Translations under genes and position numbers: made by a program
Notes under the pieces: generated by a model
Seen by the model: only the letters and a program-made list of their open reading frames with translations
Told to the model about the DNA's origin: nothing
The model's database searches: none
Part shown: positions 16,780 through 17,190 of the stretch, in pieces
Position numbering within the stretch: position 1 is the first letter of the stretch
Layout of the letters: each line of letters begins with the position of its first letter
From: a virus
Virus genome (UHGV): UHGV-1408657
Direction: 5' to 3' (one strand)
DNA: 25,963 nucleotides

Positions 16780-17190
16780 ATGAGAAAAATGTTTTGCTTA
16801 AGTTTGGCCTGTATTGCACTTACTGCGTGTAAACCTTCAGAGGAAAAAGCACTACAACTCGGGCAACAAGAAATTGCAAATGGGTTGATGGATCCCGATA
16901 GCGCCAAATTTAAAATGGTTAGGTTCAATTTGGACAAAAACCAGCAGTCCGGGGATGTTGTGAGCGGTTTCGTATGTGGCAGGGTTGCTGGGAAGAATGG
17001 GCTTGGTGCGTATGTTGGCTACCATCCTTTCTATGTTCATATCAAGATGACTCCCAAAGGGGCGTTTTCTAAAGGCGTGAATTATGAGATCGGAGAAAAA
17101 GCGATATACCCCGATGGAAGAGATGAGTCATGGATAGATCTTGACGGAAACTCTTATGTTAGCCGCTGCGGTGCCACACCATCCAAATGA
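16780..17190 (+). CDS. predicted lipoprotein (cargo gene inside the tail cluster)
   Basis: Preferred start ATG 16780 (MRKMFCLSLACIALTAC, n-region, hydrophobic core, lipobox LTAC) with GGGGA upstream; in-frame ATGs further upstream from 16747. Mature part has no motif I recognise. AT-rich. Confidence 0.65.
   Translation: MRKMFCLSLACIALTACKPSEEKALQLGQQEIANGLMDPDSAKFKMVRFNLDKNQQSGDVVSGFVCGRVAGKNGLGAYVGYHPFYVHIKMTPKGAFSKGVNYEIGEKAIYPDGRDESWIDLDGNSYVSRCGATPSK

What the first reader, a model, noticed from the sequence alone, without database searches (positions are those of the whole stretch)
16780..17190. Unrecognised lipoprotein encoded inside the tail gene cluster
The signal peptide and lipobox (LSLACIALTAC) are clear, and the mature 120-aa domain matches nothing I recognise. 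Phage-encoded lipoproteins at tail-proximal positions (Cor of phi80/N15, Llp of T5) block the phage's own receptor to exclude superinfection, so this is a candidate exclusion factor. Note that a second small lipoprotein lies after J (25261-25500), so the phage may carry two.
Basis: partly seen in the sequence, partly recalled or inferred. Interest (0 to 1): 0.55.

Follow-up and report, generated by a model that had tools for sequence, protein, structure and literature searches.

The report
Uncharacterised prophage moron lipoprotein beside tape-measure gene
A real, well-conserved gene for a small exported lipoprotein sits as an add-on ("moron") between two tail genes of an HK639/N15-like prophage; it belongs to a very large, unnamed family that temperate phages repeatedly carry next to their tape-measure gene, and it is a plausible but untested phage-exclusion factor rather than a tail part.

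Summary
16780-17190 (+) encodes a 136-aa prelipoprotein (MRK, hydrophobic core, lipobox LTAC, Lys at +2) under strong purifying selection (dN/dS 0.07). It has its own conserved promoter-like element and an intrinsic terminator. It lies in a low-GC island between the tape-measure gene and gpM, together with a Phd/Doc toxin-antitoxin pair, so it is a classic moron. It matches no Pfam, NCBIfam, PADLOC or PDB entry, only PHROG 2320 (function unknown). A profile search nevertheless finds about 4,800 50%-identity clusters across Proteobacteria. The AF2 model (pLDDT 88) has a generic cystatin/NTF2-like fold. Relatives sit in at least six temperate-element contexts and abut the tape-measure gene in 15-16 of 80 species-representative loci. 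That includes the slot of the HK97 gp15 exclusion moron. Some relatives carry peptidoglycan-binding SPOR or SH3 domains, and others are plain chromosomal genes. The second lipoprotein after J is a true Cor, paired with an N15-like J tip, so receptor-matched exclusion is already covered. The best reading is a prophage-expressed, outer-membrane-anchored periplasmic lipoprotein that most likely blocks a post-adsorption step of infection. Its function is unproven. Interest is moderate.

The parts
16494..18430 (+). Low-GC cargo island (42-47% GC against 53-59% in the flanking tail genes), inserted between the tape-measure gene (13362-16493) and gpM (18442-18792).
   Evidence: Composition profile. 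Flank identities from Pfam/PHROG. The island's content differs among sister prophages.
16720..16748 (+). Sigma-70-like promoter candidate, GTTACA-17 nt-TATCAT, about 30 nt upstream of the start codon.
   Evidence: Consensus scan. Both hexamers are invariant or near-invariant in four loci, including one whose lipoprotein is only 38% identical (alignment A3). Activity was not tested.
16770..16774 (+). Shine-Dalgarno-like GGGGA.
   Evidence: Invariant in alignment A3; 5-nt spacing to ATG 16780.
16780..17190 (+). Lipoprotein CDS (136 aa plus stop). The alternative start is ATG 16774. The upstream ATGs 16747 and 16759 are not conserved in frame.
   Evidence: dN/dS is 0.07. PHROG 2320, E 7e-32.
16780..16830 (+). 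Signal peptide II region: MRK, hydrophobic core, lipobox L-T-A-C (16819-16830). Cys17 (16828-16830) is the predicted lipidated first residue of the mature protein. Lys at +2 predicts Lol sorting to the outer membrane.
   Evidence: Read directly from the sequence. Leu14, Ala16 and Cys17 are invariant in A1. The lipobox is present in 189 of 253 relatives and Lys is the most common +2 residue (81). The sorting rule comes from established knowledge of Enterobacteriaceae.
16831..17187 (+). Mature 119-aa domain: one long helix, a 4-stranded antiparallel sheet and a short C-terminal helix. The family motif is (L)xDPDSAxF ... G-x-V-C-G-x-V-N-A-K-N-x-(F/Y)-G-G-Y-x-G-x-x-x-F ... C. Here the near-invariant Asn70 is Ala. 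Cys66 and Cys130 are near-invariant and probably form a disulfide (inferred).
17234..17259 (+). Intrinsic terminator: an 8-bp GC-rich stem (AGCCUCGC/GCGGGGCU), a 4-nt loop, then UUUUUGUU. It lies 44 nt after the stop codon.
16493..16717 (+). Co-resident cargo, not part of the lipoprotein unit: a 74-aa ORF whose start overlaps the TMP stop (ATGA). PHROG 2891, function unknown.
   Evidence: Present in L107 and L108 but absent from L004, L026 and L038.
17677..18364 (+). Co-resident cargo: a Phd-like antitoxin candidate (17677-17856) and a Doc toxin (17867-18364), followed by a terminator at 18408-18425.
   Evidence: TIGR01550 DOC_P1, E 8e-41, and Pfam Fic. PHROG 2208 and 577. Terminator.
25261..25500 (+). 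Comparison feature: the phage's genuine Cor exclusion lipoprotein, downstream of an N15-like J.
   Evidence: NCBIfam NF047972, E 1.7e-38, and PHROG 1119. The C-terminal 250 aa of J are 76-80% identical to N15 gp21 and HK225.

Best explanation
The gene is a self-contained moron. It is a horizontally acquired unit with its own promoter and terminator, carried by an HK639/N15-like lambdoid prophage between the tape-measure gene and gpM. Its product is exported by Sec, lipidated at Cys17 and, because it has Lys at +2, delivered by Lol to the inner leaflet of the outer membrane. There a compact, disulfide-braced cystatin/NTF2-like domain faces the periplasm near the peptidoglycan. I propose that the lysogen makes it and that it acts as a binding or blocking module. 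It would intercept a periplasmic step of infection by incoming phages: passage of the tail tip and ejected tape-measure protein through the wall and periplasm, that is, DNA entry after adsorption. It would therefore complement the receptor-jamming Cor that the same phage encodes after J. Shown: the gene is real and constrained; it has a lipoprotein signal; it has moron anatomy; it is accessory and exchangeable; it recurs in temperate elements and beside tape-measure genes; some relatives are fused to peptidoglycan-binding domains. Inferred: outer-membrane localisation, the disulfide, and expression in the lysogen. Hypothesised: exclusion activity and its target. Confidence that it is an accessory envelope moron is about 0.9. 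The 0.4 given here is for the exclusion mechanism.
For: Moron anatomy. There is a GC dip, a promoter-like element conserved across loci even where the protein is only 38% identical, and a terminator.

Real, constrained gene. dN/dS is 0.07, and dS is about half that of the flanking tail genes, which indicates more recent exchange.

Accessory and cassette-like. HK639 has an unrelated lipoprotein in the same slot. Kluyvera L038 has a 38% allele between tail genes that are 79-93% identical.

Association with temperate elements:
- After the TMP gene: window, L004, L026, L038, L039, L023.
- Between the tail chaperone and TMP genes in Salmonella, Citrobacter, Enterobacter, Xenorhabdus, Rosenbergiella, Oxalobacteraceae and Pseudomonas. 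This is the slot of the HK97 gp15 exclusion moron.
- Between K and I: Fraca, AUS531phi, L040, L041, L043, L044.
- Between ogr and int in P2-like phages.
- Upstream of holin in Mu-like prophages.
- In SSU5-like phage-plasmids.
- Directly downstream of CI-like repressors in three loci.

Counts. 15-16 of 80 species-representative loci abut the TMP gene with gaps of 35-70 nt. At least 46 of 80 are MGE-linked. None of the 11 phage-record hits is an evidently virulent phage (lifestyle inferred).

Periplasmic, wall-proximal action. C-terminal SPOR is present in 5 of 20 long relatives, and one relative has bacterial SH3 above the Pfam cutoff with a second, weaker hit below it.

Receptor-matched exclusion is already covered by Cor plus an N15-like J.

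Precedents for post-adsorption exclusion in the envelope: HK97 gp15 (PMC3594210), the Ltp lipoprotein that targets the tape-measure protein (Bebeacua 2013, cited in PMC3952083), and T4 Spackle, which inhibits the tail lysozyme (PMC7677548).
Confidence: 0.4

Rival explanations
1. A general periplasmic inhibitor, immunity or protective factor (lysogenic conversion not aimed at phages). The lipoprotein would bind and neutralise an envelope-damaging enzyme, for example a peptidoglycan hydrolase or amidase delivered by a type VI system, a lysozyme, a bacteriocin or a periplasmic protease. Alternatively it would tune a host wall enzyme. Either way it would give the lysogen a fitness benefit.
For: The fold class is the one used by cystatin, latexin and PepSY-type inhibitors. 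The most conserved motif maps to the hairpin between strands 2 and 3, topologically where cystatins carry their inhibitory loop (my knowledge). There are SPOR and SH3 fusions. There are many stand-alone chromosomal copies across alpha-, beta- and gamma-proteobacteria, like orphan immunity genes. The protein is small and probably disulfide-bonded, and the gene is under purifying selection.
Confidence: 0.25
2. One reading: a Cor/Llp-type receptor jammer. The outer-membrane lipoprotein would bind the periplasmic face of an outer-membrane receptor (a TonB-dependent transporter or porin) and switch it to a form that phages cannot use.
For: The cell address is the same (outer-membrane lipoprotein with a probable internal disulfide). 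It lies in a tail cluster. Llp shows that small phage lipoproteins can do this from the periplasm (PMC9586334). It could target a receptor other than FhuA and so exclude different phages.
Against: The phage already has a true Cor after an N15-like J. Receptor-matched exclusion genes normally lie next to the RBP locus (PMC8594841), whereas this family sits in many positions unrelated to RBPs: before and after the TMP gene, ogr-int, upstream of holin, after cI, and in a phage-plasmid early region. It has no similarity to Cor beyond the signal peptide, and the Cor models do not hit it. Fusions to SPOR or SH3 domains and the chromosomal members are hard to square with a receptor-specific jammer.
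Confidence: 0.15
3. A lytic-cycle helper for lysis or release. It would be made late with the tail genes, to modulate wall breakdown or to stop progeny from being wasted on cell debris.
For: It lies in the late operon and would also be read through from the late promoter. In Mu-like prophages relatives lie just upstream of the holin and transglycosylase genes. Some relatives carry peptidoglycan-binding fusions.
Against: The window has its own lysis genes at its left end, which match the holin, lysozyme and Rz of HK225. The protein has a folded 119-aa domain and no C-terminal membrane segment, unlike o-spanins and u-spanins. Its own promoter and terminator, and the copies placed after CI repressors, argue for expression in the lysogen.
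Confidence: 0.08
4. A tail-assembly or virion component, or a non-functional ORF.
For: Its position inside the tail cluster is the only argument.
Against: An exported, lipidated protein cannot take part in cytoplasmic tail assembly. It is absent from HK639, lambda, HK97 and N15. It is replaceable by unrelated or distant alleles. dN/dS of 0.07 and about 4,800 related clusters rule out a spurious ORF.
Confidence: 0.03

Closest known systems
HK97 gp15 moron (superinfection exclusion at DNA entry)
   Same: It is an autonomous moron with its own terminator, inserted next to the tape-measure gene of a lambdoid siphophage. Relatives of the window protein occupy exactly the gp15 slot (tail chaperone to TMP) in Citrobacter HK97-like, Salmonella, Enterobacter, Xenorhabdus and Pseudomonas prophages. 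gp15 acts after adsorption, in the envelope (PMC3594210).
   Different: gp15 is a 62-aa protein with one N-terminal transmembrane helix that sits in the inner membrane. It has no lipobox and no homology (hhalign probability 0.07%). In the window the slot is on the other side of the TMP gene.
Cor (phi80/N15/HK022) and Llp (T5) receptor-jamming lipoproteins
   Same: They are small phage-encoded outer-membrane lipoproteins with an internal disulfide, encoded in or beside tail genes.
   Different: There is no sequence similarity beyond the signal peptide. The Cor HMMs hit 25261-25500 but not this protein. The mature part is twice the size (119 aa against about 60). The predicted fold differs. The gene is not adjacent to the RBP. 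The phage already has Cor.
Ltp of Streptococcus thermophilus phage TP-J34
   Same: It is a prophage-expressed exclusion lipoprotein that acts outside the cytoplasm and blocks DNA injection. Its target has been identified as the tape-measure protein (Bebeacua 2013, cited in PMC3952083). It is the best functional analogy for a TMP-linked lipoprotein.
   Different: The host is Gram-positive. The gene lies in the lysogeny module. The fold is helical HTH-repeat (my knowledge). There is no homology: no Pfam hit and no PDB sequence hit for the family profile.
T4 Spackle (Sp)
   Same: It is a small periplasmic phage protein that stops incoming phages at the peptidoglycan step by inhibiting the tail lysozyme (PMC7677548). 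That is conceptually close to a wall-proximal inhibitor.
   Different: It belongs to a virulent phage, is soluble rather than lipidated, is all-helical and is unrelated in sequence.
PHROG 2320 (with 20234, 36625, 35207) and the unnamed proteobacterial lipoprotein family defined here
   Same: This is true family membership: E 7e-32 to PHROG 2320, and the motif DPDSAxF...VCGxV(N)AKNxFGGYxG...C is shared.
   Different: No function is annotated. The window's clade has Ala in place of the near-invariant Asn70 and carries a longer, variable C-terminal segment.

Membership tests
Bacterial lipoprotein (SPase II substrate) | N-terminal positive n-region, hydrophobic h-region and lipobox [LVI][ASTVI][GAS]C within about 15-35 residues of the start. 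| tested here: met
   MRK-MFCLSLACIAL-TAC, with lipobox LTAC and Cys17. Leu14, Ala16 and Cys17 are invariant in A1. A lipobox is found in 189 of 253 relatives.
Bacterial lipoprotein (SPase II substrate) | Actual lipidation, cleavage and outer-membrane localisation. | not testable with these tools
   Outer-membrane sorting is inferred from Lys at +2 (no Asp), using the Lol rule for Enterobacteriaceae.
Phage moron (Juhala/Hendrix definition) | Extra gene absent from otherwise collinear relatives. | tested here: met
   HK639, HK97, N15 and lambda lack it. The content of the slot differs among sister prophages.
Phage moron (Juhala/Hendrix definition) | Base composition differs from the neighbouring genes. 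| tested here: met
   42-47% GC against 53-59%.
Phage moron (Juhala/Hendrix definition) | Own promoter and terminator that allow expression from the repressed prophage. | tested here: inconclusive
   A conserved promoter-like site at 16720-16748 and a terminator at 17234-17259 are present. Transcription was not measured. Promoter-like sites in the region are not more frequent than in shuffles (5 against 3.8), so the argument rests on conservation.
Cor exclusion lipoprotein family | Sequence match to Cor models (NCBIfam NF047972, PHROG 1119). | tested here: not met
   There is no hit for 16780-17190 at E<=0.1, while 25261-25500 scores 130.5 bits. BLASTP aligns only the signal peptide.
Cor exclusion lipoprotein family | Encoded next to the receptor-binding tip gene, and inactivates that phage's receptor. 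| tested here: not met
   The gene lies about 3.8 kb upstream of the start of J and about 7 kb upstream of the tip-encoding end of J, and the RBP-adjacent position is taken by Cor. Receptor inactivation itself is not testable here.
HK97 gp15-type exclusion protein | Homology to gp15 (small protein anchored in the inner membrane by a transmembrane helix). | tested here: not met
   hhalign probability 0.07%. gp15 has a transmembrane helix and no lipobox.
Superinfection exclusion protein (functional class) | Expression reduces infection by incoming phage at adsorption or DNA entry. | not testable with these tools
   Only contextual evidence is available.
Cystatin / NTF2-like fold superfamilies | A helix packed on a curved antiparallel sheet, with a significant structural match. 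| tested here: inconclusive
Lambda-type tail assembly or structural proteins | Conserved presence and position in the tail module, with a cytoplasmic location. | tested here: not met
   It is an exported lipoprotein. It is absent from most relatives, and its position varies.
Spanin (o-spanin or u-spanin) | Lipoprotein encoded in the lysis cassette, embedded in or next to an i-spanin gene, or carrying a C-terminal transmembrane domain. | tested here: not met
   It lies about 15 kb from the lysis genes at the left end of the window. It has no C-terminal hydrophobic segment and has a folded domain.

The most novel reading that the evidence does not exclude
The family is a previously unrecognised, very widespread class of Gram-negative envelope lipoproteins that temperate phages deploy as a post-adsorption exclusion device. 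In this reading it is a wall-proximal cystatin-like 'plug' that binds the ejected tape-measure or tail-tip proteins of incoming siphophages, or inhibits their papain-like NlpC/P60-type wall-cutting activity. It would be the Gram-negative counterpart of Ltp and Spackle. That would explain why the gene is so often parked beside the tape-measure gene. The chromosomal copies would be domesticated or ancestral versions.
Probability: 0.25. Interest if true: 0.7.

Novelty: new member of a known kind. Interest (0 to 1): 0.4.

Why it matters
Prophage morons are a main source of phage-resistance and fitness traits, yet most of their products are unnamed. This protein represents a family of about 4,800 50%-identity clusters with no Pfam or NCBIfam model. 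The family is carried by lambda-like, HK97-like, P2-like and Mu-like prophages and by phage-plasmids of enterobacteria, pseudomonads and other Proteobacteria, very often abutting the tape-measure gene. If it blocks DNA entry, it would give a common, easily testable exclusion determinant. That is relevant to phage-therapy host range in Enterobacter, Klebsiella, Salmonella and Pseudomonas. It would also give a handle on the poorly understood periplasmic stage of siphophage genome delivery. If it is instead a general periplasmic inhibitor, it would be a new lysogenic-conversion function. In either case the family deserves a name and a model.

Tried and rejected
- Pfam, NCBIfam and PADLOC scans of the protein, and a Pfam scan of 74 relatives, gave nothing beyond lipid-attachment-site noise.
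- The PDB sequence search with the family profile returned only a signal-peptide match to a beta-lactamase.
- Foldseek against PDB gave no hit at E<=1e-3. BFVD gave only weak hits to unnamed phage lipoproteins. AFDB50 was unavailable.
- Megablast of the island against phages and E. coli genomes found only the Doc part (SW-37) and the TMP end.
- An exact-sequence look-up of the 147-aa product returned nothing on record, so the source genome was not identified.
- A search for a conserved partner gene around 43 marker-negative loci found none in more than 4 loci. The recurrent ones were CI-like repressors, integrases and primases.
- Rfam on the island returned only a sub-threshold chance hit.
- Literature searches for a characterised member (lipoprotein + tape measure + exclusion; SPOR + prophage; cystatin + exclusion) found none.
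- Readings rejected: spanin, tail component and spurious ORF (see rival explanations). Homology to the HK639_16 lipoprotein in the same slot was also rejected (E 0.17).
- Diversifying selection was tested and not seen at 88% identity.
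Full report
**1. The observation**

The window is the late region of a lambdoid prophage. It matches phage HK639 over 62% of its length at 83% identity. The order is lysis genes, terminase, head genes, tail genes, a 1,043-aa tape-measure protein (TMP, 13362-16493), then gpM, L, K, I and J (18442-24164).

Between the TMP gene and gpM lies an ORF, 16747..17190 (+). An alignment of the upstream DNA with three homologous loci settles the start. The homologues carry a 1-nt indel that throws the upstream ATGs (16747, 16759) out of frame. The block GGGGATGAT(A/T)(A/G)TG is conserved. This supports a start at 16780, where homologues have GTG. ATG 16774 is possible but less likely.

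The 136-aa precursor has a textbook lipoprotein signal: M-R-K, an 11-residue hydrophobic core, and lipobox L-T-A-C with Cys17. Lys at +2 predicts sorting to the outer membrane in Enterobacteriaceae (established Lol rule; inference here).

The gene is real and constrained. Against two 88%-identical homologues dN/dS is 0.07, comparable to the flanking tail genes at 0.03-0.06. Of 253 relatives collected, 189 keep a lipobox and 183 have at least two further cysteines.

**2. It is a moron, not a tail part**

GC falls from 53-59% in the tail genes to 42-47% across 16500-18400.

A sigma-70-like site (GTTACA-17 nt-TATCAT, 16720-16748) precedes the gene, and an intrinsic terminator (17234-17259) follows it. 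The promoter-like hexamers and the Shine-Dalgarno-like element are conserved in four loci. One of these is a Kluyvera prophage whose lipoprotein is only 38% identical. Promoter activity itself was not tested. The count of promoter-like sites in the region is not above shuffles, so this argument rests on conservation.

The island also holds a 74-aa ORF (16493-16717, PHROG 2891) and a Phd-like/Doc toxin-antitoxin pair (17677-18364; TIGR01550, E 8e-41) with its own terminator.

Sister prophages fill the same slot differently:
- HK639 has an unrelated lipoprotein (HK639_16; BLASTP E 0.17) plus a YafO toxin system.
- Enterobacter prophages have an 88% homologue plus an FtsK-gamma protein and YafO.
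- The closest relatives (98%) have the 74-aa ORF, the lipoprotein and a different Fic protein.
- Kluyvera L038 has a 38% allele between tail genes that are 79-93% identical.

The dS of the lipoprotein gene (0.73-0.80) is about half that of the flanking genes (1.0-1.9). This indicates more recent exchange.

**3. The family**

The protein has no Pfam, NCBIfam, PADLOC or PDB sequence match. It matches PHROG 2320 (E 7e-32) and three smaller PHROGs, all of unknown function.

A profile search of 1.84 billion representative proteins returned 4,796 clusters at E<=1e-3 and 105 at E<=1e-10. A second search returned 1,735 proteins at E<=1e-5, all labelled 'hypothetical' or 'lipoprotein'. None of 74 aligned members hits a Pfam domain.

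The alignment defines a motif: LxDPDSAxF, then G-x-V-C-G-x-V-N-A-K-N-x-F-G-G-Y-x-G-x-x-x-F, then a C-terminal Cys. Asp38, Gly67 and Asn73 are invariant, and Cys66 and Cys130 are near-invariant. The window's clade has Ala at the near-invariant Asn70 position and a longer variable C-terminal segment.

**4. Where relatives live**

Gene neighbourhoods were examined in annotated phages, plasmids, assemblies and 80 species-representative genomes. Relatives were found in these places:
- (a) Between the TMP gene and gpM in HK639-like and lambda/Gifsy-like prophages.
- (b) Between the tail chaperone genes and the TMP gene in Salmonella, Citrobacter (HK97-like), Enterobacter, Xenorhabdus, Rosenbergiella, an Oxalobacteraceae MAG and Pseudomonas.
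- (c) Between gpK and gpI in Escherichia phage Fraca, Pseudomonas phage AUS531phi and four further loci.
- (d) Between ogr and int in P2-like phages.
- (e) Just upstream of holin and transglycosylase genes in Mu-like prophages.
- (f) In the early region of SSU5-like phage-plasmids, about 137 plasmid records, mostly non-mobilizable and, among the top-ranked records, mostly about 105-120 kb.
- (g) Immediately downstream, on the same strand, of CI-like HTH+S24 repressors in three loci, and in integrase/primase islands.

In the 80-locus sample, 15-16 loci have the gene abutting the TMP gene with gaps of 35-70 nt. At least 46 are linked to mobile elements. That figure is a lower bound, because my marker set was limited.

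Slot (b) is the position of the first moron ever named, HK97 gene 15. Its product blocks DNA entry of superinfecting phages (PMC3594210). gp15 itself is an unrelated 62-aa membrane protein.

Other members lie among housekeeping genes such as a CDF transporter, an ABC transporter, prfC, GST and aldehyde dehydrogenase. The family is therefore not exclusive to phages.

Of twenty longer relatives, five carry a C-terminal SPOR domain. One carries bacterial SH3 above the Pfam cutoff, and a second gives a weaker SH3 hit below it. Both are peptidoglycan-binding modules.

**5. The second lipoprotein**

25261-25500 is a bona fide Cor (NCBIfam equivalog, 130.5 bits against a cutoff of 31; PHROG 1119). 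The last 250 residues of J are 76-80% identical to those of N15 gp21 and HK225. N15 is an FhuA-dependent phage with its own Cor (my knowledge; Cor and FhuA are covered in PMC3594210).

Receptor-matched exclusion lipoproteins are typically encoded directly downstream of J or the RBP (PMC8594841, PMC9586334). The phage therefore already has that function in the expected place. This makes a second FhuA jammer at 16780 unlikely. The two lipoproteins align only in their signal peptides.

**6. Mechanism**

Shown:
- A constrained gene for a lipoprotein precursor.
- Moron anatomy.
- Exchangeable cassette behaviour.
- Strong association with temperate elements and with TMP-flanking junctions.
- Wall-binding domain fusions in relatives.

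Inferred:
- Outer-membrane anchoring with the domain in the periplasm.
- A Cys66-Cys130 disulfide.
- Expression in the lysogen.

Hypothesis (confidence 0.4): the domain binds a component of incoming phages, or a host factor they need, in the periplasm or wall layer, and blocks genome entry after adsorption. It would be functionally parallel to three known proteins: HK97 gp15; the Ltp lipoprotein, whose target is the tape-measure protein (cited in PMC3952083); and T4 Spackle, which inhibits the tail lysozyme (PMC7677548).

Rivals:
- A general periplasmic inhibitor or immunity factor against wall-damaging enzymes (0.25). This is favoured by the chromosomal copies, the inhibitor-type fold class and the SPOR/SH3 fusions.
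- A Cor/Llp-like jammer of a different receptor (0.15).
- A lysis or release helper (0.08).
- A tail part or spurious ORF (0.03).

Against all the exclusion models: there are no functional data, there is no PADLOC hit, and selection between close homologues is purifying rather than diversifying. The enrichment next to TMP genes may also simply reflect moron-tolerant junctions and shared ancestry.

**7. Verdict**

It is a new, unnamed member of a known kind, the prophage moron lipoprotein. Its family is unusually large and phage-mobile and lacks any curated model. Interest is moderate (0.4). It would rise to about 0.7 if a tape-measure or tail-tip-directed periplasmic block were demonstrated.

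Noticed in passing
window 25261-25500 (+); J C-terminus 23412-24161: The small lipoprotein after J is a genuine Cor exclusion lipoprotein (NCBIfam NF047972, E 1.7e-38). The C-terminal 250 aa of J are 76-80% identical to N15 gp21 and HK225. The phage therefore probably uses FhuA and already carries the matching exclusion gene.
   Followed up: yes
window 17677-18364 (+), terminator 18408-18425: A Phd-like (PHROG 2208) plus Doc (TIGR01550, E 8e-41) toxin-antitoxin pair shares the low-GC island. It is 92.6% identical in DNA to Salmonella phage SW-37. Sister prophages carry a YafO system or a different Fic protein at this place, so the TMP-gpM junction repeatedly collects a lipoprotein plus a toxin-antitoxin pair.
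   Followed up: partly
window 16493-16717 (+): A 74-aa ORF whose ATG overlaps the TMP stop codon (ATGA). It matches PHROG 2891 (unknown function). It is present in the two closest relatives (L107, L108) but absent from other sister prophages.
   Followed up: partly
window 17255-17675: About 420 nt between the lipoprotein terminator and the phd-like gene have no convincing ORF on either strand and no Rfam match. The stretch may hold the promoter or operator of the toxin-antitoxin pair, or a remnant of a lost gene.
   Followed up: partly
window 18033-18064 (+): A perfect 13-bp inverted repeat (AGCAGACAGACGA-TATGTT-TCGTCTGTCTGCT) lies inside the Doc coding sequence. The scan flagged it as terminator-like.
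   Followed up: no
L003 5182-5595 (HK639 gene 16): HK639 carries an unrelated 137-aa lipoprotein (no Pfam hit) in the same TMP-gpM slot, followed by a YafO toxin system. This is non-orthologous replacement of one lipoprotein by another.
   Followed up: partly
window 24161-24478 and 24478-25152 (+): Two genes lie between J and cor. They match PHROG 557 ('outer membrane protein') and PHROG 425 ('membrane associated protein', moron category), as in HK639 genes 24 and 25; an ES18 gene annotated 'outer membrane protein' also abuts its J gene. Their function is unknown.
   Followed up: no
L071 9148-10243; L094 9203-10279; L101 3765-4836: In three distant proteobacterial loci the family gene lies 26-137 nt downstream of a CI-like HTH + peptidase S24 repressor, on the same strand. 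This suggests co-expression with the repressor in lysogens.
   Followed up: partly
L106 6965-7378 (E. coli plasmid NZ_LR882992.1) and about 137 PLSDB records: A 48%-identical relative is common on non-mobilizable plasmids, mostly about 105-120 kb among the top-ranked records, that look like SSU5-type phage-plasmids. There it lies between primase/TPR and ligase genes rather than among tail genes.
   Followed up: partly
L109 5014-5334 (HK97 K-I gap): HK97 has a 320-nt gap with an annotated terminator between K and I. This is the junction where Fraca, AUS531phi and four other loci carry the lipoprotein family, so it may be another moron-tolerant junction.
   Followed up: no
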